Both the position numbers and the translations under genes were made by a program. Below the pieces are notes generated by a model. The model saw only the letters and a list, made by a program, of their open reading frames with translations, did not search any database and was not told the DNA's origin. A stretch of 64,000 nucleotides of DNA, taken from a virus. Positions 7,201 to 40,861 of the stretch are shown piece by piece. Positions within the stretch are counted from its first letter, which is position 1. Every line of letters begins with the position of its first letter. Where the stretch lies: positions 122,313 through 186,312 of IMG/VR virus record IMGVR_UViG_3300037336_000025; one strand, written 5' to 3'.

Positions 7201-10200
7201 ATGGCACTACAATCACCAGGCGTACAAGTTACAGTTATCGACGAGAGTTTTTACACACCAGCAGAGCCTGGTACTACTCCTCTTATCGTAGTAGCTACAG
7301 CGCAAGACAAAACGAACGGATCAGGGACAGCGGTTGCCTCATCCACAACAAAAGCAAATGCCGGCAAGGCATTTAAACTAACTAGCCAACGCGATCTTAC
7401 TGATCTGTTTGGAGTACCATTCTTTGAGAAGACTGCGTCTTCAAGTCCAGTACACGGCGGTGAAAGAAACGAATACGGTCTGCTAGCAGCTTACAGCTTG
7501 CTAGGAGTCAGCAACGCAGCATTTATTGTACGTGCTGATGTTGATCTATCAGAGTTAGAAGCCCAAGCAACTGCTCCGGGAGCGGCCCCGAATAACGGCA
7601 AATGGTGGGTTGATACGCAAGCGACTACTTGGGGCATCCAAGAGTGGAACAGTGCAGATGTTAGCACTACCGGTGGACAGAAGTTTGCAGCAAAAACTCC
7701 AATAGTACTAACAGACGACGACAGTTCTAAAATTGAATCAGGCGGTGTTCCAAAAGCATCTATTGGCTCTATCGGTGACTACTGTGTTGTGTTCCAAACA
7801 GTGCAAGGAAGCGGCGCAGGTAGCGAAGAAGCTAAAATTTATTTCAAGAGCGCTGGACTACCAGTCGCTGGTGTTGTTGCAGGTGCATGGGCACTAGTTG
7901 GTTCTACAGAGTGGGCATTAAGCCACGCAACTGTAACTGGCTCTGGCTTTGGTACTCCTACAGCAGGCAACTTTACAATTAACGGAACAACTATTACATT
8001 GACCGGTGGCGAAACTGTTGCAGCAACAGTTGCACTTATTAATGGATTAACTATTGTTGATGCTGAAGAAGCAAGAGGCGTATTTGCTAGAGCAGTTGGC
8101 GGCGAAATTTATCTTTATACTTCCGGTACTAACGATCAACCAGCTACTGTTGATTCTAGTCTGTCAACAACAATTACCATTGGTGCAGGCACTACTACAC
8201 TATCCTTATTAGGTTTAGTTGCTGGCACATTTTATGCTCCAGGTCTACAGCAAACTCCACATACACAAGTTCCAACATGGAAGAGCAACGATGCAACTGC
8301 ACGCCCAACAGGTTCAGTATGGTTAAAGACAACTGAGCCAAACAATGGCGCACGTTGGAGAGTTAAGCAATGGAATTCAGCGACTGCTACTTGGGTAGCA
8401 AGCGAAGCTCCTATCTATGCTACTACAAATGCAGCATTGTACTACTTAGACCGCAGCGGCGGCGGAATCAACATTAGTGCTAACGCATTAATGGTTCAAA
8501 CAAACAGCCAAGAAGGCTCGTTCAATGACATAGTGCCTGATAGTGTTACATTTAGAATGTGGAGACGGTCTGTTGCGGCCGGACAATACACAACAATTGC
8601 TACTAGCATAACAGTAGGATCAGTTGCATCTACTGGTCCAAAGTCATTCACAATTGCAGAAAGTGTTAAGGGTGTTATTGCATTAGGTACAGCAAAGACT
8701 ATTTCATTCACTGCTACCAACGACATGGACGATGCTGAACTAATTGCTCAAGCAATTAACGCAGCAGGATTTGCAAACATTGAAGCAGAATCAGTAGCAG
8801 CAAGTACCGCGCCTACTAATGCAACTAACGTATTGAGCATTTACCACAAGTTAGGAGGCGACTTTAGAATTGTCGACACTGACAGTGTATTTGGTAACTT
8901 GTTTGCCAGCGCACTAAATGTATATGCTGCGCCTGCAGGTTCAAGTGATGACTATGTTGTCTCAGCCTGGGCACCATTTACAACTACTGCCTTTAGTGCA
9001 TCTGCTAGCGCTCCTCTAAACGAAGCAGATGATGGACAATTATGGTACAGCTCTAGTGTTGGCGATGTTGACATTATGATACATGATGGTACAACTTGGG
9101 TTGGTTACAGAAACGCTGCATCAGATTTTAATAGCGTAGATACAACACGTATTGGATACACTCCAGTGGTATCAGCAAGCAATCCTTGGATAGCCGGAAC
9201 ACTAACAGGCGACTTGTGGATTAGCACAGCCGACTTAGAAAATTATCCAACAATTTACCGTTACAATTCAGCAAGAACTGATATTGCCGACGGAAAGAAT
9301 CGTTGGGAATTAGTTGACAAGACTGATCAACAAACTGAAGAAGGTATCTTGTTTGCCGATGCACGTTATGACTTGAACGGCGAAGAAACTATTGCAGCTT
9401 CTATTAGCGATCTAGCTAACAGTAACTTCTTAGACTTTGATGCTCCAGATCCAGATCTATATCCAAGAGGCATGTTGCTGTGGAACTTGCGCAGAAGTGG
9501 CGGCAACGTTAAGCGTTACCAAAACAACTACGTGAATACAGCAAGTGATAATGTACGTTTTAACAACAACGAATCTATGGCAGACTATGCAACTGATCGT
9601 TGGGTTACAGCTAGCCCAAATAATGAAGACGGTTCTGGATCATTCCTACGTCATGCACAACGTGGTGTTGTAGTTGCTGCGCTTAAGAGTGCAGTTGATA
9701 CAAGCAGCGAGATCCGTGACGAAGAAAGACGTAACTTTAACATTATTTCTTGCCCAGGATATCCTGAGCTAATGAGCAATCTAGTTAACTTGAATATCGA
9801 TCGTGGAATTACAGCGTTTGTAGTTGGTGACACTCCACTACGTTTAGCTAGCGATGCTACAACATTAACTAACTGGGGTTCAAATGCCGAGCTAGTTACT
9901 GATAACGGCGATAAAGGGCTTGTTACTTACGACGAATACTTGGCTACGTTCTACCCAAGTGGATTTACCACAGACCTAAGCGGCGCCAATGCAGTTGTTC
10001 CTAGCTCACACATGATGCTTAAGACTATTGCACTAAGCGACAACGTTTCTTACCCATGGTTTGCTCCAGCAGGTACAAGACGCGGTGGCATTACTAACGC
10101 TACAGCCGTTGGTTACATTGATGCAGCAAGCGGTGAATTCCAAACTGTTGCACTCAATGAAGGTCAACGTGATACGTTATATGACTTAAAAATTAACCCA

Positions 10201-33649: not shown

Positions 33650-34152
33650 GAATTTTAACACTAAACAATAGGTCATTTGACCTTAACGACTTACCAGATG
33701 AGGTAGATGAAGATACTAGATTTTCAGTATTAGATAATTCTAATCCTAACGATCCTGACTTCTTTTTCATGCCACTGATCTTTTTAGAATCTTTTAATAG
33801 TCCGGCTATTTTGTTAAATATTGGCGGACACGAAATTCAAATGCCTTTAGATTGGTGCATGGTAGTTGGCGATAAAGAATGTGGGCTTGATCCAGAAGTA
33901 TTGCCATTGACTAGCATTAACGAACGTGGATTTGATGCATTGTGTTTTAATCCGATAAACGGATTTAGAGCAGAGTTTATGCCGATTGAGATTGTAAATA
34001 TATACCAAGACGTAAAATGGTATTTCCCTAAAATGAAAAACGGACACTTGCTTACTGTTCCATTGCATGACGGTCCAAGCCCTCCTTGTGTTTATTTTGT
34101 TAAAGAAATATCAAGGCAAAGTGAAATTGTACAACTAGATAAGGTGATTTAA
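33646..34152 (+). CDS. Hypothetical protein
   Basis: Coupled to uvsW; clean ORF. Confidence 0.6.
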   Translation: MRILTLNNRSFDLNDLPDEVDEDTRFSVLDNSNPNDPDFFFMPLIFLESFNSPAILLNIGGHEIQMPLDWCMVVGDKECGLDPEVLPLTSINERGFDALCFNPINGFRAEFMPIEIVNIYQDVKWYFPKMKNGHLLTVPLHDGPSPPCVYFVKEISRQSEIVQLDKVI

Positions 34153-34367
34153 TGCCTCAATCATATATGGTTGATCACCGGAGAATATCTAGCGAAGTAA
34201 AAACATCACTGCTTCCTAGACGGTGTTATCTCAGTGGAAAAAAATTATGGCTTAAACGGTGTCGAGTAATATATACAATACTAACTGGCCCCGGCGATGC
34301 GATATATGAAACGCATTGGTGCGACCCAGCAGAATTTTTATTATATGAATTAAGGAGAACAAAATGA
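34152..34367 (+). CDS. Hypothetical protein
   Basis: TAATG-coupled 71-aa ORF. Confidence 0.5.
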   Translation: MPQSYMVDHRRISSEVKTSLLPRRCYLSGKKLWLKRCRVIYTILTGPGDAIYETHWCDPAEFLLYELRRTK

Positions 34368-34438
34368 AAGCAGGCAAGGTTTATAAAAGCAGGAAAAATG
34401 CTAAATACTTTTATGAAAGTATACTGGATAAAAAATAA
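34364..34438 (+). pseudogene. Relic 5' end of the cupin gene (MKAGKV...) ahead of a homing endonuclease
   Basis: AAGGAG RBS plus ATG, 24-aa ORF whose start matches RAGKV(WG) of the cupin at 35000. Confidence 0.6.
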
Positions 34439-35000
34439 AGAACATAATGATATAATGACTCAAGGATATATTGGCATAACTGTAACCGAAGGACGTGGCA
34501 ATAGAATCTGGGGTCATTTTAATAAATTACAAAATAAGTCTCATCCTAATCCACATTTACAAAATGCTTACAACTTATATAAAGATTTAGAAGTAGATAT
34601 TATATTTGAAGGCACTGAGGAAGAATGTATTGCCAAAGAAGTTGAGCTGAGACCTACTAAAGAAACAGGTTGGAATATATTAGAAGGTGGTGGCATGCCA
34701 CCGAACCATAACGGAAAACATTGGTTTACTAATGGTAAGAAAAATACTTTAGCAGAAGATTGTCCTATAGGATTTCGATTAGGTAAAACACAAATAGGTG
34801 GCGAGCAACACGGGCACTATAATAAGCCTAAAAAATATAAAACAGTACAAGTTCACTCTTTTGCTGATAGAAACATTCCGTGGAATAAAGGAATTGTCGG
34901 AGACAAAAAAGAACAAATTAGTTGTCCTCATTGTAATAAAAAAGGAGGTAAACCGTCTATGACTAGATGGCATTTTAATAGTTGTAAGGAGAAAAAATAA
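34413..35000 (+). CDS. GIY-YIG homing endonuclease
   Basis: MKVYWI...GYIGIT, R, E, GWN; C-terminal IPWNKG and CPHC. Start at 34413 (TAAATA-N5-ATG). Confidence 0.82.
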   Translation: MKVYWIKNKEHNDIMTQGYIGITVTEGRGNRIWGHFNKLQNKSHPNPHLQNAYNLYKDLEVDIIFEGTEEECIAKEVELRPTKETGWNILEGGGMPPNHNGKHWFTNGKKNTLAEDCPIGFRLGKTQIGGEQHGHYNKPKKYKTVQVHSFADRNIPWNKGIVGDKKEQISCPHCNKKGGKPSMTRWHFNSCKEKK

Positions 35001-35362
35001 TGGGAATTCGCGCTGGTAAAGTATGGGGGGCCACTGAACTCCTCGAAGCAAACGGTGTATTAGAATTTCACCGTATTGAAGCGTCGGCAGGCGGCGTATG
35101 CTCAAAGCATCGACACAAATACAAATGGAATGGCTTCTTTGTAGAGTCAGGTGAAATGATTATTCGAGTGTGGAAGAACAACTACAATCTAATTGACGAA
35201 ACAGTATTAACTGCCGGCCAATATACCAAAGTTGCTCCAGGTGAATATCATCAATTTGAAGCTGTCACTGATTGCATTGCCTTTGAATTATATTGGGCAG
35301 AGTTTGATCATGCCGATATCGAGCGCGAAACAGTAGGACATGCAAAAGATGGGAAGTCTTAA
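35000..35362 (+). CDS. Cupin-domain protein
   Basis: CSKHRHKYKWNGFFVESG...PGEYHQF. Confidence 0.75.
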   Translation: MGIRAGKVWGATELLEANGVLEFHRIEASAGGVCSKHRHKYKWNGFFVESGEMIIRVWKNNYNLIDETVLTAGQYTKVAPGEYHQFEAVTDCIAFELYWAEFDHADIERETVGHAKDGKS

Positions 35363-35636
35363 ACCTGGAGCAACATATATCTACGAGCGTAATGGTGAGG
35401 AAATATATGCTCGCGAGTTCGGCGAAACAGATCGTACATTAGTTGGATACAAATACGAAATGGGAAGAACTCCTGATCCTCGAACAAGTGACGGACGCCC
35501 GCTAATTGATCACATACGAGAAGATAAACTTTGGGGCAGCATTCGGAGAGAAGCAAAGACAAATACAGCTTTACAAGCAGCATTAGACCATGCTATACTA
35601 ATATATCACTTGAGTAAAGACGATGGGCAAAAATAA
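35349..35636 (+). CDS. Hypothetical protein
   Basis: Probable start MGSLKPG; clean ORF. Confidence 0.55.
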   Translation: MGSLKPGATYIYERNGEEIYAREFGETDRTLVGYKYEMGRTPDPRTSDGRPLIDHIREDKLWGSIRREAKTNTALQAALDHAILIYHLSKDDGQK

Positions 35637-36102
35637 ACACGTAGATCTTTTTAATGACATGATTCCTGCTGTTGATCTCGGTATCAAAGAATTGTGGGAC
35701 GCTGCTACTGATGAAGGCAAAAAAGAAATTAAAGGCGACTTCTTCAATCTTACTAGATATATCAGCAGTGTTAAGAGCAATAACAGAGAGCTACAAGAAC
35801 ATTTTGTATTGACTGTCAATGAATTCTACAATAAGAATTGGAATGACATCCAGAAGCATCCTAAGTTAGTATGGCAGACTTTATGTTCGTGTAGTCATGA
35901 AAGCAAGAAGAAACAGTTCCACGAATGGATTCCGTTAAAGAAGCAGAAGAATAAAAAAGTAGCGTTCTTAGCGGAACTGTTTCCCGATATGAAAATGTCG
36001 GACGTTGAAACTATGTCTATAATTACAACCGATAAAGAAGTAAAAGCATACTGTGAGAAACTTGGTTGGGATAAGAAAGAAATCAATGCAATTAAATTTT
36101 AA
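35623..36102 (+). CDS. Possible clamp-loader small subunit (T4 gp62-like)
   Basis: FNLTRYISS, KKQFHEWIP and the helical C-terminus resemble gp62; lies in the replication module. Confidence 0.4.
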   Translation: MGKNKHVDLFNDMIPAVDLGIKELWDAATDEGKKEIKGDFFNLTRYISSVKSNNRELQEHFVLTVNEFYNKNWNDIQKHPKLVWQTLCSCSHESKKKQFHEWIPLKKQKNKKVAFLAELFPDMKMSDVETMSIITTDKEVKAYCEKLGWDKKEINAIKF

Positions 36103-36769
36103 GTGCGAACATTGTGAAAAACTATTTGCTAAAGAAAAGACTTTAGTAGTTCACATCTGCGAACAAAAACGTAGGCATTTAAGCAAGGGCGAGAAACATG
36201 TTCAGATGGGGTTGTTAACATTCCAACGTTTCTACGAGCTTACACAAAAAGCAAAACAGGCAAAGACATTTGATGAATTTGCATCAAGTAGTTTCTATAC
36301 AGCCTTTGTAAAGTTTGGCAGCTTCACTGTTAATACTGCTCCTATCTATCCAGAACGGTTTGTTGACTTTGTTATCAAGAGCGGAGTTAAACTGGATCAC
36401 TGGTGTAGAGACGAATTGTATGACAAATATATTAGCGAGCTTATTAAGATTGAGCCAGCCGATGGTGCAATTCAGCGTACTATAAAAACTATGATGGATT
36501 GGGCTGATGATAATAAATCACAGTGGGAGCATTACTTTGCCTATGTCAATTTAAATAGAGCTACGCATGATATCAAAGAAGGACTGGTCAGTCCTTGGAT
36601 TATATTAAATACCAAAGCTGGTAAAGAGATGCTGAAAGGCATGAATGATGAGCAACTGGCAATTGTAGGGCCAGTTATCGATCCGCAGTTTTGGATGAGA
36701 CGTTTTAAATCTCTGCCAGCAGATACAGAATTAGTTAAAGACGTCATCAAGGAGGCGAAGATATTATAA
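36086..36769 (+). CDS. Hypothetical protein with N-terminal Zn-finger
   Basis: FKCEHCEKLF......HIC; probable start MQLNF. Confidence 0.6.
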   Translation: MQLNFKCEHCEKLFAKEKTLVVHICEQKRRHLSKGEKHVQMGLLTFQRFYELTQKAKQAKTFDEFASSSFYTAFVKFGSFTVNTAPIYPERFVDFVIKSGVKLDHWCRDELYDKYISELIKIEPADGAIQRTIKTMMDWADDNKSQWEHYFAYVNLNRATHDIKEGLVSPWIILNTKAGKEMLKGMNDEQLAIVGPVIDPQFWMRRFKSLPADTELVKDVIKEAKIL

Positions 36770-36993
36770 TGGCAAAACGACCTGAAGAAGAAATTAAAGA
36801 AATAGAGTTAGCTGAAAACGAAACTTTTATTTCAGATGACGACATTGATGTTGAAGTTGTAGTAACTGAAGATACTAACGAAGTTTTTGTAAAGTTTTCT
36901 GGCTTTGCTGACAGCGAGGATGCTGAGGAATACGCACAGTTCCTAGCAGAAACATTACCTTTACTTTTATTCGAAACAACAAGAATACAATAA
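36769..36993 (+). CDS. Hypothetical acidic protein
   Basis: TAATG coupling on both sides. Confidence 0.55.
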   Translation: MAKRPEEEIKEIELAENETFISDDDIDVEVVVTEDTNEVFVKFSGFADSEDAEEYAQFLAETLPLLLFETTRIQ

Positions 36994-37571
36994 TGCCAGA
37001 TATTGATATTGACTTTTTAGATAGAGAACACGCATTAACATTGTTTAAGCACGTTGGTGCTAGTCGTGTTGACAATAACAAACTAGTTAAACATAACACT
37101 GGAGTTTACATGCACGAAGTTCCAGTTGACGCAATTACTGGACTGTGCAGTGTTCCTTATAATGAAGCAGATAACGAAGGATACTTTAAAATTGACTTTC
37201 TTAATGTTGGCATTTACAAAGGTGTAAGAGATGAAACTCATCTTGTAGAATTAATGAACAACGAACCACTATGGGACTTACTAGAGCAGGACGATTTCAG
37301 TAATCTGCTGTTTCATGTAAACGGTCATGGTTCTATTCTGAGATCAATGAAGCCAACTAGTATAGAACAATTAGCGGCAATTTTGGCAATGATCCGGCCT
37401 GCGAAACGTTATCTAATTGGAAAAGATTGGACTACGGTAATGAACGAGGTATGGACAAAGCCAGCGGGCGATGAATACTTCTTTAAGAAGTCCCATGCCA
37501 CTGCATATGCTGTTGCTATTGTGGTGCAGATGAATCTAATCTGTGAAGGAATTAGTTACGGATTTAGTTAA
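36993..37571 (+). CDS. dnaE: Miniature C-family DNA polymerase (DnaE palm/fingers core, 192 aa)
   Basis: PDIDIDF, KHNTGVY, KIDFLNV, PTSIEQLAAILAMIRP and FKKSHATAYA in DnaE order. Confidence 0.8.
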   Translation: MPDIDIDFLDREHALTLFKHVGASRVDNNKLVKHNTGVYMHEVPVDAITGLCSVPYNEADNEGYFKIDFLNVGIYKGVRDETHLVELMNNEPLWDLLEQDDFSNLLFHVNGHGSILRSMKPTSIEQLAAILAMIRPAKRYLIGKDWTTVMNEVWTKPAGDEYFFKKSHATAYAVAIVVQMNLICEGISYGFS

Positions 37572-37939
37572 GTAGGTTTTCTGACTAGAGTAATTGATTT
37601 ACGTTTGATACGTTTTACAATAATATTGTTTAGGCTTGTGCATGGGCCAAACATAACTTTTACATCCTTAGTTGAAAAGTTTTTAATAATATATCGGAAT
37701 CCTGCAATTTCTCTTAACAGAAAAATATTAATAGGAATTTGACGATTTGACTCCCACCACCATGCTTCGCCTAGCTCTAAAAATTGAGTCCGCTCTTCTT
37801 CCGTCTTAATAGAAGTATAAATGTACATACTGGTAACTTGTGCATCTTGATTAATAATAATACCCACGTACTCTTGATTGACGTGGTTAATGACACTAAT
37901 AAATGGGAAGTTTTCTTGTAAGTTTTCTGTTATTCTCAT
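37568..37939 (-). CDS. Hypothetical protein
   Basis: Clean ORF with upstream TATAAT. Confidence 0.6.
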   Translation of the reverse strand: MRITENLQENFPFISVINHVNQEYVGIIINQDAQVTSMYIYTSIKTEEERTQFLELGEAWWWESNRQIPINIFLLREIAGFRYIIKNFSTKDVKVMFGPCTSLNNIIVKRIKRKSITLVRKPT

Positions 37940-39823: not shown

Positions 39824-39920
39824 TTTCATCTTATCCCCATACCGAAAGATTAAAGAAGAGAGAGCTTTTAAAAAGCGTCTTGAAGAACTACGTAAACGTG
39901 ATCCATTTATCTACAAATGA
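39804..39920 (+). CDS. Small basic protein (38 aa) missed by the ORF track
   Basis: MLKKIIDFILSPYRKIKEERAFKKRLEELRKRDPFIYK*; fills the gap and overlaps the next ATG (ATGA). Confidence 0.55.
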   Translation: MLKKIIDFILSPYRKIKEERAFKKRLEELRKRDPFIYK

Positions 39921-40861
39921 TTACCTGGGGAATAAACGCTCTTAATCACGGATCTAGCATTGCGGTATTTGACAATGACGAATATAAAATTAGTGCAGTG
40001 TCCGACCGTGATACCTTGCCTTCTGAGATAATTCGAAGAGCATTAGATCAAGGCGCACCAGATCACATCTTTTGGTATGAGCAGCCGTGGCTTAAAAAAG
40101 CTAGGCAGGTGTATGCAGGACAATGGCGGCGAGCGTTAGATATGACTGTGCTGCCTAGAAGATACCTAAATGAAAATAGATTGCAGTATGCCAAACTCTC
40201 GTATACGCAGCATCATGCTAGCCATGCGGCTGCAGGCTACTATACTAGTCCTTTTAATCATTGTGCTATTGTAGTTCTTGATGCTATTGGTGAGTTTGAA
40301 TGTGCTACGATTTGGGAAGGTCGTGACGGTGAGATGAAGAAAATTTGGAGTCGTAGATATCCGCATAGTCTAGGCTTGTTCTATTCTGCCTTTACAGCAT
40401 TGCTAGGAATGACTCCTATCAGGGATGAATACTTACTGCAACAAATGGCAGCAAAGGGTCATCCCGATCGTTATCGCCATCTTGTTCACACATACATGAG
40501 CGGGTTATTAACAGCTGGCAAGAACATGCACAAAGGTATAGTTGATTGGCCACACGACACTTTGGTATTATCAGATCAGTACGATGTTGCAGCCGCAGTA
40601 CAAGCAGTATTTGAAGAACAGATTGCATCAGTGATGTATAAGGCTAAAAAGTTAACTGGAGCAGATAGCCTAGTATACATGGGCGGCTGTGCTATGAATA
40701 GTACCGCTAACATAAAAGTAGTTGAGCCTAAATTCAAATACATTTGGTCATTGCCTAGTCCGGGAGATCCGTCTAGCGCTATGGGAGCGGTATTGTATCA
40801 CACAAAACAACGTGTAGATTATAACTGGGGAACGGTAAAACATATTAAAATTAGTGTTTAA
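39917..40861 (+). CDS. Carbamoyltransferase, N-terminal (Kae1-like) domain only (NodU/CmcH/TobZ family)
   Basis: HGSSIA, HHASHAAAGYYTSPF, VLDAIGE, SLGLFYS, GGCAMN, PGDPSSAMGA. Confidence 0.82.
   Translation: MITWGINALNHGSSIAVFDNDEYKISAVSDRDTLPSEIIRRALDQGAPDHIFWYEQPWLKKARQVYAGQWRRALDMTVLPRRYLNENRLQYAKLSYTQHHASHAAAGYYTSPFNHCAIVVLDAIGEFECATIWEGRDGEMKKIWSRRYPHSLGLFYSAFTALLGMTPIRDEYLLQQMAAKGHPDRYRHLVHTYMSGLLTAGKNMHKGIVDWPHDTLVLSDQYDVAAAVQAVFEEQIASVMYKAKKLTGADSLVYMGGCAMNSTANIKVVEPKFKYIWSLPSPGDPSSAMGAVLYHTKQRVDYNWGTVKHIKISV

What the first reader, a model, noticed from the sequence alone, without database searches (positions are those of the whole stretch)
36993..37571. 192-aa 'minimal' DnaE: all three catalytic aspartate motifs, no PHP, thumb or most of the fingers
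Seen in sequence: PDIDIDF, KHNTGVY, KIDFLNV, PTSIEQLAAILAMIRP and FKKSHATAYA occur in DnaE order, with the ORF starting at the first motif. Established knowledge: E. coli Pol III alpha (about 1160 aa) uses D401/D403 (PDxDxD) and D555 (KxD), with the thumb between them. Here that spacer is only about 25 aa, and the PHP, clamp-binding and OB domains are absent. Inference: either one subunit of a multi-gene C-family replicase (candidate partners are the Zn-finger ORF at 36086 and the gp62-like ORF), or a repurposed nucleotidyltransferase or primer-extension enzyme. No T4-type PolB gene lies in this window's replication module.
Basis: partly seen in the sequence, partly recalled or inferred. Interest (0 to 1): 0.75.

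Follow-up and report, generated by a model that had tools for sequence, protein, structure and literature searches.

The report
C-terminal half of split phage mini-DnaE
The 192-aa ORF is real and conserved, but it is only the C-terminal half of a two-gene, stripped-down Pol III alpha-like enzyme of Rak2/121Q-type jumbo phages, a family predicted from sequence in 2021 and never assayed.

Summary
The ORF (36993-37571, +) and its five DnaE-order motifs are confirmed. It is not a complete minimal DnaE. It starts exactly at the PDxDxD strand and lacks the N-terminal palm half with the GRGS nucleotide-binding loop.

In six relatives a separate gene of about 155-177 aa supplies that half. It matches Pfam PF07733 and E. 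coli DnaE 321-393, and ends at ...EF(L/F)K, where the C-unit begins. That gene lies 30-224 kb from the C-unit gene. In three syntenic relatives it sits 2.7-3.9 kb beyond the point where this 186-kb contig starts, so it is missing here by truncation.

A natural 375-aa N+C fusion exists. A co-fold of the two halves scores ipSAE 0.91 against 0.00 for the best control, which may partly reflect memory of solved DnaE structures.

The AF2 model (pLDDT 96.4) superposes end to end on Pol III alpha (Taq Z 9.4; E. coli residues 400-784). The thumb is replaced by a turn. D3, D5, K66, D68, R135, P136 and H168 are conserved, and dN/dS is about 0.09.

The genome has an 892-aa PolB open frame, so this enzyme is accessory, not the replicase. 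Iyer et al. 2021 (PMC7824862) described exactly this split minimal Pol III alpha in group 2.2 jumbo phages. First readers of this scan flagged the same ORF type in several other genomes. The biochemical role is untested.

The parts
36993..37571 (+). C-terminal unit of the split minimal Pol III alpha (192 aa): palm strands with the catalytic Asp residues plus a reduced fingers core.
   Evidence: phrog_11778 'DNA polymerase', E 2.7e-67. Profile against PDB Pol III alpha, E 1.3e-5. AF2 pLDDT 96.4. VIA Z 9.4 to Taq 461-838 and Z 8.7 to E. coli 400-784. dN/dS about 0.09.
36996..37016 (+). PDIDIDF (residues 2-8), equivalent to E. coli D401/D403/D405, on the first strand of the model (E4-8).
   Evidence: D3, D5 and D7 are conserved in at least 90% of 89 cluster representatives and in 42/42 close relatives. 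E. coli has MPDFDVDF at 398-405. In the co-fold this strand contacts the GRGS loop of the N-unit.
37089..37109 (+). KHNTGVY (residues 33-39), equivalent to E. coli K510-HAGGV, the strand that follows the thumb in DnaE. Here it follows a 3-5 residue turn, so the thumb is deleted.
   Evidence: H34 and G37 are conserved in at least 90%. The model has a hairpin E21-27/E30-39. E. coli sequence at 426-440 and 510-519.
37188..37208 (+). KIDFLNV (residues 66-72), equivalent to E. coli K553-F-D555; carries the third catalytic Asp.
   Evidence: K66 and D68 are invariant in 89 representatives. HMM alignment to E. coli 539-641.
37353..37400 (+). PTSIEQLAAILAMIRP (residues 121-136), equivalent to the E. 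coli ...ALVALFRPG fingers helix (about 625-641).
   Evidence: P136 is invariant; R135 and P121 are conserved in at least 90%. Alignment.
37482..37511 (+). FKKSHATAYA (residues 164-173), equivalent to E. coli F-N-K-S-H-S-A-A-Y-A (about 756-765).
   Evidence: K165, H168 and A173 are conserved in at least 90%. Alignment to E. coli 743-768. Residues 165-168 contact N-unit 142-144 in the co-fold.
36769..36993 (+). 74-aa acidic ORF. Its stop overlaps the C-unit ATG (TAATG). This is context only; no evidence that it is a subunit.
   Evidence: In sister strains a 707-nt 2OG-Fe(II) oxygenase gene is inserted exactly between this ORF and the C-unit, so the coupling is not obligatory.
36053..36769 (+). 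C2H2 zinc-finger, all-helical protein (phrog_11058; likely start at 36086). It is a conserved upstream neighbour of the C-unit and is not a DnaE piece.
   Evidence: Present upstream in 79 of 80 IMG/VR loci and in PAC2, Turkey3 and Phosso. AF2 pLDDT 89.5. No convincing PDB fold match.
37568..37939 (-). Convergent 123-aa ORF (phrog_11637) overlapping the C-unit stop by 4 nt. A conserved neighbour of unknown function.
   Evidence: Same arrangement in Phosso, PAC2 and Turkey3. A weak homolog also lies next to the fused form P0214.

Best explanation
**What it is.** The ORF encodes the C-terminal subunit of a two-piece, minimal family-C (Pol III alpha-like) nucleotidyltransferase typical of group 2.2 (Rak2/121Q/PA5oct/Atu_ph07-like) jumbo phages. 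It carries three things:
- the two beta-strands with the metal-binding aspartates (D3/D5 and D68, next to K66);
- the post-thumb KHxxGV strand;
- a cut-down fingers core with the RP and KSH motifs.

These correspond to E. coli alpha residues 399-784. The thumb and the finger tips have been excised. There is no PHP, clamp-binding, HhH or OB domain.

**What is missing.** The first half of the Pol-beta-like palm is absent: the helices plus the G-R-G-S loop, equivalent to E. coli 271-393. In relatives a separate protein of about 155 aa supplies it. That protein ends at ...EF(L/F)K, 5 residues (E. coli numbering) before the point where this ORF begins.

**How it most likely works.** The two proteins most likely assemble non-covalently, without an intein, into one active site. 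In this phage the N-unit gene should lie about 3-4 kb beyond the 5' end of the assembled contig.

**Role (inferred, not shown).** The phage has its own PolB, clamp loader, primase and helicases. The mini-Pol III is therefore an accessory enzyme. The most likely role is a low-processivity DNA polymerase for short-patch synthesis, such as primer extension at the primosome or gap and repair filling.

**Shown versus inferred.** Identity, fold, the split, conservation and co-occurrence are shown. Physical assembly is predicted only. Polymerase activity and biological role are inferred.
For: **Family.**
- phrog_11778, E 2.7e-67.
- 96 jumbo-phage records carry a near-full-length homolog.
- 7446 homologs at E<=0.001 among proteins of 105-336 aa; nearly all of the top 120 are 192 aa.
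- 418 clusters at 50% identity.

**Homology to DnaE.**
- Profile E 1.3e-5, colinear with E. coli 539-641 and 743-768.
- The full-length DnaE PHROG phrog_405 matches the C-unit at positions 442-453, 584-678 and 775-809. It matches the N-unit at 365-432.

**Fold.**
- pLDDT 96.4.
- The top 15 Foldseek hits are all Pol III alpha/PolC-type C-family polymerase entries.
- Z 9.4, rmsd 3.4, 187 residues aligned to Taq 461-838; Z 8.7 to E. coli 400-784.

**Selection.**
- K66, D68 and P136 are invariant. D3, D5, D7, H34, G37, R135, K165 and H168 are conserved in at least 90%.
- Median dN/dS is 0.09.

**The N-unit.**
- PF07733 hits above the cut-off at distant positions in Phosso, PAC2 and Turkey3 and in three IMG/VR relatives.
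- The N-unit profile aligns to E. coli 321-393.
- Per-genus record counts for N and C in the phage collection are almost the same: Escherichia 34/34, Pseudomonas 11/11, Klebsiella 10/11, Salmonella 8/8, Erwinia 8/8.

**Truncation of this contig.** The start of G000 aligns colinearly with G005 position 10122, G003 position about 14966 and G002 position 188736. The N-unit lies 2.7-3.9 kb further out in all three.

**Fusion.** P0214 (375 aa) is N-unit plus C-unit in DnaE order. One continuous PF07733 match crosses the junction.

**Co-fold.** ipSAE 0.91 in three runs against 0.00 for the best of three controls. That mark was reached by 58 of 80 solved complexes and 2 of 110 mismatched pairs. At least 81% of contacts are shared between runs, and partner pLDDT is at least 76. 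The interface joins C-unit 2-9 and 165-168 to N-unit 112-125 (the GRGS loop) and 142-150.

**PolB.** An 892-aa PolB open frame is on the same contig.

**Prior description.** Iyer et al. 2021, section 3.4.1.
Against: - The N-unit is not on the 186-kb contig itself: regex, tblastn and PF07733 all found nothing. Its presence in this phage rests on synteny with relatives.
- Two of five large related contigs also lack a hit. All five are incomplete (55-79%).
- The co-fold pass may come from the model's memory of intact DnaE structures. It shows likeness, not binding.
- The N-unit used in the co-fold (P0355) comes from a relative, not from this genome.
- No biochemical or genetic data exist for any member. 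Only the 2021 comparative paper was found.
- Without a thumb, clamp-binding motif or HhH, templated DNA synthesis is not assured.
Confidence: 0.85

Rival explanations
1. Stand-alone minimal DnaE: the 192-aa protein is a complete single-chain polymerase or nucleotidyltransferase.
For: It holds all three catalytic Asp residues and the RP and KSH motifs. It folds confidently on its own.
Against: The ORF starts at the DxD strand and has no G[GS] loop or preceding helices of the Pol-beta-like fold. Those are E. coli 321-393 and map to the separate N-unit. A partner with matching phyletic distribution exists, as does a natural N+C fusion. The predicted interface buries residues 2-9 and 165-168 against the GRGS loop.
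Confidence: 0.04
2. The two halves do assemble, but the enzyme is not a templated DNA polymerase. It would be a terminal transferase, a nucleotide-signal synthase or degrader mimic, or a DNA or protein nucleotidylylating enzyme used in host conflict.
For: Thumb, HhH, clamp-binding and OB elements are lost. Its size and architecture approach minimal Pol-beta-superfamily nucleotidyltransferases (general knowledge). PolB already covers replication.
Against: The DnaE fingers motifs are retained and highly conserved. Both halves sit among replication genes. The C-unit lies between UvsW and primase. The N-unit lies about 2.5 kb upstream of an RFC-like clamp-loader ATPase. None of this is decisive.
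Confidence: 0.25
3. Decaying remnant of a once full-length phage DnaE: a pseudogene fragment.
For: It covers only part of DnaE, and Pfam finds nothing above threshold.
Against: Length is constant across thousands of homologs. Catalytic residues are invariant. dN/dS is about 0.09 with saturated dS. Contigs from other salt-lake samples show no indels. Model confidence is very high.
Confidence: 0.01
4. The adjacent C2H2 protein, the gp62-like ORF, or both are additional subunits of the mini-Pol III.
For: The C2H2 gene is upstream of the C-unit in 79 of 80 related loci and in cultured phages. Stop and start codons overlap along C2H2, the 74-aa ORF and the C-unit in this window.
Against: Neither protein shows any DnaE similarity. 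The C2H2 model has no significant PDB match: best Z 4.2, and T4 gp59 at Z 3.6 with rmsd 12.1. A 707-nt gene is inserted between them and the C-unit in sister strains. Neighbourhood alone does not indicate binding, and binding was not tested.
Confidence: 0.15

Closest known systems
Split minimal Pol III alpha of group 2.2 jumbo phages (Iyer, Anantharaman, Krishnan, Burroughs & Aravind 2021, Viruses 13:63; for example the 121Q, PBECO4, GAP32, PA5oct and Atu_ph07 proteins)
   Same: Same family (phrog_11778 for C, phrog_11127 for N). Same split into an N-terminal NTP-binding unit and a C-terminal Mg/template-binding unit encoded by distant genes. Same coexistence with PolB, UvsW and DnaG-type primase. 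Same local gene order.
   Different: This copy is from an uncultivated salt-lake phage and is only 36-52% identical to cultured members. Its N-unit is off the contig. Three points here are not in the paper's text as read: the natural 375-aa fused form, the exact break point and thumb-to-turn replacement, and the co-fold.
Bacterial DnaE / Pol III alpha (E. coli 2HNH, Thermus 2HPI/3E0D, M. tuberculosis 5LEW)
   Same: Catalytic PDxDxD and KxD, KHxxGV, RP and KSH motifs in the same order. Palm and fingers fold superposes at Z 8.7-9.4 over about 187 residues.
   Different: No PHP, thumb, finger tips, beta-clamp motif, HhH, OB or tau-binding domain. About 345 aa in two chains against about 1160 aa in one. 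It accompanies a PolB rather than being the replicase.
Cyanobacterial split-intein DnaE (dnaE-n / dnaE-c)
   Same: A family-C polymerase encoded by two widely separated genes.
   Different: There is no room for intein halves here. N-units stop 0-6 residues after EF(L/F)K, and the C-unit starts at MPD. Assembly must therefore be non-covalent. The comparison with the cyanobacterial break site and intein sizes rests on general knowledge and was not tested here.
Minimal Pol-beta-superfamily nucleotidyltransferases (G[GS] loop + DxD + third acidic residue)
   Same: The reconstituted N+C core reduces to this catalytic arrangement, and its overall size is similar.
   Different: It keeps DnaE-specific fingers helices (RP, KSH). 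Sequence and fold searches return only C-family polymerases.

Membership tests
Family-C DNA polymerase catalytic core (Pol III alpha / DnaE) | Catalytic aspartates in PDxDxD and KxD | tested here: met
   D3/D5/D7 and K66/D68 are present and conserved. They align to E. coli D401/D403/D405 and K553/D555.
Family-C DNA polymerase catalytic core (Pol III alpha / DnaE) | Complete Pol-beta-like palm, including the N-terminal G-R-G-S nucleotide-binding loop, in the same protein | tested here: not met
   The ORF begins at MPD. The GRGS segment (E. coli 321-393) maps to a separate protein in relatives and is absent from the window and the contig.
Family-C DNA polymerase catalytic core (Pol III alpha / DnaE) | Significant sequence and fold similarity to solved Pol III alpha | tested here: met
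   Profile E 1.3e-5. Foldseek top 15 are all Pol III alpha/PolC-type entries. VIA Z 9.4/9.2/8.7 over about 187 residues, against Z 3.2 or less for unrelated folds.
Family-C DNA polymerase catalytic core (Pol III alpha / DnaE) | PHP, thumb, clamp-binding, HhH and OB domains of cellular DnaE | tested here: not met
   The 192 aa span only E. coli 400-784. The 433-509 thumb is replaced by a turn. No Pfam PHP or OB hits.
Family-C DNA polymerase catalytic core (Pol III alpha / DnaE) | Template-directed DNA polymerase activity | not testable with these tools
Split minimal Pol III alpha of group 2.2 jumbo phages (Iyer et al. 2021) | Stand-alone C-terminal Mg/template-binding unit of about 190 aa | tested here: met
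   phrog_11778 E 2.7e-67 over 3-185. Homologs are 185-216 aa.
Split minimal Pol III alpha of group 2.2 jumbo phages (Iyer et al. 2021) | Separate N-terminal NTP-binding unit encoded by a distant gene in the same genome | tested here: inconclusive
   Found in 6 of 8 relatives searched. Not on this contig. Synteny places it 2.7-3.9 kb beyond the contig start.
Split minimal Pol III alpha of group 2.2 jumbo phages (Iyer et al. 2021) | Coexists with a family-B polymerase and a T4-like replication and recombination set | tested here: met
   PolB, 892-aa open frame. UvsW-type helicase and DnaG-type primase in the window.
Split minimal Pol III alpha of group 2.2 jumbo phages (Iyer et al. 2021) | The two units reconstitute one enzyme | tested here: inconclusive
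   Supported by the natural fusion P0214, by matching phyletic counts, and by the co-fold at ipSAE 0.91 against 0.00 for the best control. The co-fold may reflect memory of DnaE structures. Physical binding is not shown.
Split-intein DnaE | Intein halves flanking the break | tested here: not met
   N-units end 0-6 residues after the last DnaE-homologous residue. The C-unit starts at the DnaE-homologous MPD.

The most novel reading that the evidence does not exclude
The split mini-Pol III would be a dedicated second replisome polymerase. It would take over RNA primers from the adjacent DnaG-type primase and hand them to PolB, as Pol alpha does in eukaryotes or DnaE does beside PolC in Firmicutes. 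The invariably adjacent C2H2 helical protein may act as its loader. Alternatively, as Iyer et al. suggest, it preserves a pre-cellular proto-Pol III architecture. The rare 375-aa fused form would then be a tractable single-chain minimal C-family polymerase.
Probability: 0.2. Interest if true: 0.7.

Novelty: already known. Interest (0 to 1): 0.35.

Why it matters
A family-C catalytic core of about 345 aa in two chains would be by far the smallest relative of the bacterial replicase. It also sits beside a family-B replicase, a combination not seen in cells. The family is very abundant in metagenomes, with thousands of 90% clusters, and it marks a whole clade of jumbo phages. Yet nobody has shown what it does.

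The comparative description was published in 2021, so the discovery itself is not new. What remains valuable is a directly testable question: does N+C polymerise DNA, on what primer, and is it needed for infection? Concrete reagents for that are identified here: the exact boundaries, a natural fusion and a predicted interface.

Tried and rejected
- **Weak single-sequence searches.** Pfam on the C-unit alone gave only a sub-threshold DNA_pol3_finger hit (13.9 bits against a cut-off of 22). Single-sequence phmmer against PDB gave E 0.33. A profile was needed.
- **Megablast.** 15 kb around the ORF against the phage collection gave no match.
- **N-unit on this contig.** PF07733, phrog_405 at E<=10 (only the C-unit itself), a GRGS regex on six frames and tblastn with three N-units all found nothing. 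Synteny explains this as contig truncation.
- **Fused forms.** The word-index search among longer proteins found none. The only fusion seen, P0214, came from the exhaustive HMMER search. It sits on a 2.4-kb contig with little context.
- **Supplement.** The supplement of Iyer et al. is not held, so their accession lists could not be compared.
- **C2H2 neighbour.** Foldseek against PDB gave no hit at E<=0.001. VIA wide gave a best Z of 4.2, with T4 gp59 at Z 3.6 and rmsd 12.1, which is not convincing. The Atlas gave only unnamed viral clusters.
- **Expression.** No RNA holder was listed among sequencing runs, so nothing can be said about expression.
- **Literature.** A search for any later work on split, minimal or mini-DnaE in jumbo phages found only the 2021 paper. 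The PA5oct omics paper text does not mention the gene.
Full report
**1. The observation**

The ORF listing and get_sequence confirm a 192-aa ATG-initiated ORF at 36993..37571 on the + strand. Its translation contains five motifs in DnaE order:
- PDIDIDF (residues 2-8)
- KHNTGVY (33-39)
- KIDFLNV (66-72)
- PTSIEQLAAILAMIRP (121-136)
- FKKSHATAYA (164-173)

The protein starts M-P-D-I-D-I-D. The stop of the upstream 74-aa ORF overlaps the ATG (TAATG).

One number in the finding needs correcting. D7 to D68 is 60 residues, against 149 from E. coli D405 to D555. The '25 aa' is the distance from PDIDIDF to KHNTGVY.

**2. It is a real, selected gene of a large family**

- PHROGs places it in phrog_11778 ('DNA polymerase', profile length 197) at E 2.7e-67. 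Pfam alone gives only a sub-threshold fingers hit.
- tblastn finds near-full-length homologs (36-52% identity) in 96 phage records. Among the records and genera listed, all are jumbo phages of the Rak2/121Q/PBECO4/GAP32/CBB/PA5oct/XacN1/Atu_ph07 type.
- The large protein collection holds 7446 relatives at E<=0.001 among proteins of 105-336 aa. Nearly all of the top 120 are 192 aa.
- An exhaustive HMMER search finds 418 clusters at 50% identity. Of the 150 listed, the 89 taken as full length are 179-219 aa.
- In an alignment of 89 such representatives, K66, D68 and P136 are invariant. D3, D5, D7, H34, G37, W94, P121, R135, K165 and H168 are conserved in at least 90%.
- Against 17 IMG/VR relatives with usable dS, median dN/dS is 0.09, with dS saturated. 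All key residues are identical in 42/42.
- Contigs from four other salt-lake metagenomes carry the gene with a few substitutions and no indels.

The pseudogene reading is excluded.

**3. Homology and fold**

A profile of the 89 sequences hits E. coli, Thermus and M. tuberculosis Pol III alpha at E 1e-5 to 1e-4. Profile 55-140 aligns to E. coli 539-641, and 155-179 to 743-768. The full-length DnaE PHROG (phrog_405) matches the ORF colinearly at profile positions 442-453, 584-678 and 775-809.

AlphaFold2 with this alignment gives pLDDT 96.4 and pTM 0.89. The 15 best Foldseek hits are all Pol III alpha/PolC-type C-family polymerase entries.

VIA-align superposes model residues 1-190 as follows:

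| Target | Range | Z | Notes |
|---|---|---|---|
| Thermus alpha | 461-838 | 9.4 | rmsd 3.4, 187 aligned |
| M. tuberculosis DnaE1 | 419-811 | 9.2 | |
| E. coli alpha | 400-784 | 8.7 | |
| Best unrelated fold | | 3.2 or less | |

So 190 residues cover what takes 385 in E. coli.

The E. coli sequence shows ...SQIITFGTMAAKA at 426-440 and KHAGGVVI at 510-517. In the phage protein the equivalent strands (model E21-27 and E30-39, with K33-H34-x-x-G37-V) are joined by a turn of 3-5 residues. The thumb is therefore excised. PHP, clamp-binding, HhH and OB are absent.

**4. It is only half of the catalytic domain**

The ORF begins at the DxD strand. It therefore lacks the helices and the G[GS] loop that precede that strand in every Pol-beta-like palm.

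Iyer et al. 2021 (PMC7824862, section 3.4.1) describe precisely this case. [quoted passage not shown] I located the N-unit independently. PF07733 scans of three complete relatives each give one hit above the cut-off to profile positions about 16-97, far from the C-unit gene. The ORFs are 169-177 aa. All contain WG(V/L)GRGSSVASY...(Y)(N/K/E)LD...EFL(K/N) and end there. Three large IMG/VR relatives, with C-units 71-76% identical to ours, have the same gene at 155-168 aa.

A profile of 55 N-units aligns to E. coli DnaE 321-393 (...GPGRGSGAGSLVAY...FERFLN). It aligns weakly from residue 271, the PHP/palm boundary. The C-unit picks up at E. coli 398-399 (MPDFDVDF). On phrog_405 the N-unit covers 365-432 and the C-unit starts at 442. 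The break is thus a clean cut between two adjacent secondary-structure elements, with no intein-sized extra sequence.

**5. Do the halves belong together?**

- **Phyletic match.** tblastn with an N-unit hits the same genera in almost the same numbers as the C-unit: Escherichia 34/34, Pseudomonas 11/11, Klebsiella 10/11, Salmonella 8/8, Erwinia 8/8, Yersinia 4/4, Xanthomonas 4/4. It also hits other phages, such as those of Bacillus, which probably carry full-length DnaE or PolC.
- **Spacing.** The genes are 30-44 kb apart in the enterobacterial and Pseudomonas phages and 182-224 kb apart in the rhizobial ones. In the window's own clade they are about 167-185 kb apart.
- **Natural fusion.** P0214 (375 aa) has an N-unit (39% identical to a relative's N-unit, E 3e-23), a linker of about 8 residues, then a C-unit. 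One continuous PF07733 match crosses the junction.
- **Co-fold.** The window's C-unit (alignment A1) with the N-unit P0355 (alignment A2; from a relative whose longest contig, 352,379 bp, has the same length as that listed for an 83%-identical C-unit) scores ipSAE 0.91 in three runs, against 0.00 for the best of three controls. That mark was reached by 58 of 80 solved complexes and 2 of 110 mismatched pairs. Runs share at least 81% of contacts, and partner pLDDT is at least 76. The interface puts C-unit 2-9 (the DxD strand) and 165-168 (KKSH) against N-unit 112-125 (the GRGS loop) and 142-150.

As the tool warns, halves of a protein with solved full-length relatives can pass from memory. The co-fold shows that the pair looks like an intact DnaE palm, not that it binds.

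**6. Why the N-unit is not in this genome record**

The window is positions 122313-186312 of a 186-kb IMG/VR contig judged 53% complete. No N-unit is on it.

tblastx shows that base 2 of the contig aligns colinearly with G005 position 10122, G003 position about 14966 and G002 position 188736. In all three the N-unit lies 2.7-3.9 kb further out. The gene is therefore expected just beyond the assembled end. This is an inference from synteny, not an observation.

**7. Context and role**

The same contig has an 892-aa PolB open frame (PF00136, 99.5 + 22.4 bits). The mini-Pol III is therefore not the main replicase.

Around the C-unit the gene order is conserved from Pseudomonas, Escherichia and Sinorhizobium phages to this one: UvsW helicase, small ORFs, a gp62-like/phrog_11758 protein, the C2H2 protein (phrog_11058), the C-unit, a convergent phrog_11637 ORF, a structural protein, the DnaG-type primase and, in the cultured phages, DnaB.

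The N-unit lies about 2.5 kb upstream of an RFC-like clamp-loader ATPase.

The C2H2 protein folds confidently (pLDDT 89.5) into a zinc finger plus a helical body, with no convincing PDB match. The best Z is 4.2. T4 gp59 reaches Z 3.6 at rmsd 12.1, which is a lead only.

In sister strains a 707-nt 2OG-Fe(II) oxygenase gene sits exactly between the 74-aa ORF and the C-unit ATG. Tight translational coupling is therefore not essential.

My best reading of the role is an accessory, low-processivity DNA polymerase for short-patch synthesis, meaning primer extension or repair. I put this at about 50%. It follows Iyer et al.'s suggestion and the replication-module context. A non-templated nucleotidyltransferase role (about 25%) cannot be excluded, given the loss of thumb, HhH and clamp-binding elements.

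**8. Novelty**

The family, its minimal nature, the split and its coexistence with PolB were published in 2021. PHROGs and JGI already label both halves as DNA polymerase (III alpha). Weinheimer and Aylward 2022 note PF07733 as a marker of their jumbo-phage cluster PGC_A.

First readers of this scan flagged the same ORF type in several other genomes. The increments here are:
- the exact break point in E. coli numbering;
- the replacement of the thumb by a turn;
- a natural fused form;
- a high-confidence model and co-fold;
- the explanation for the missing N-unit on this contig.

No experimental characterisation was found. The verdict is that the object is genuine and interesting but already described.

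Noticed in passing
window 36991/36992; L012:5326-5991: Population polymorphism. In three of four salt-lake runs, and in a contig with a 100%-identical C-unit, a 707-nt insertion carrying a 221-aa 2OG-Fe(II) oxygenase (PF13759, E 5.5e-11) sits exactly between the stop of the 74-aa ORF and the C-unit ATG. Contigs without the insertion are also present, in two of the four runs (one of which has both forms).
   Followed up: partly
L103:1066-2193 (protein P0214): A natural 375-aa fusion of the N-unit and C-unit of the mini-Pol III, on a 2.4-kb metagenome contig. The convergent ORF downstream is weakly homologous (E 9e-5) to window 37568-37939(-), so the fusion sits in the C-unit's genomic context.
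   Followed up: partly
window 36053-36769 (+): A C2H2 zinc-finger, all-helical protein (phrog_11058) lies immediately upstream of the C-unit in 79 of 80 related loci. The model is confident (pLDDT 89.5) but has no clear PDB fold match. T4 gp59 helicase loader and HMG boxes appear only at Z 3.2-3.6. The likely true start is the ATG at 36086.
   Followed up: partly
window 34152-35362 (+): Between the UvsW-side genes and the gp62-like ORF lie three ORFs absent from the three cultured relatives looked at: a weak HNH-like 71-aa ORF, a 200-aa homing-endonuclease-like ORF (phrog_7168, E 3.5e-4) and a 120-aa cupin/cysteine-dioxygenase-like ORF (phrog_7851, E 1.5e-9). They look like mobile or accessory insertions in the replication module.
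   Followed up: no
window 39917-40861 (+): A NodU/CmcH-type carbamoyltransferase N-terminal domain protein (PF02543, E 3.8e-28) directly follows the DnaG-type primase. Cultured relatives have the DnaB helicase at that position.
   Followed up: no
window 35340-36102 (+): The gp62-like ORF (159 aa) matches only positions 138-248 of the 263-position phrog_11758. The overlapping upstream 98-aa ORF has no PHROG hit. In Escherichia phage Turkey3 the syntenic gene is a single 281-aa 'clamp-loader small subunit'. This may be a shorter or split form in this clade.
   Followed up: no
window 36053-37939: The phage recurs, with at least 71% of sampled 31-mers shared, in 24 salt-lake metagenome runs dated 2017-2021. 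It is a persistent population.
   Followed up: no
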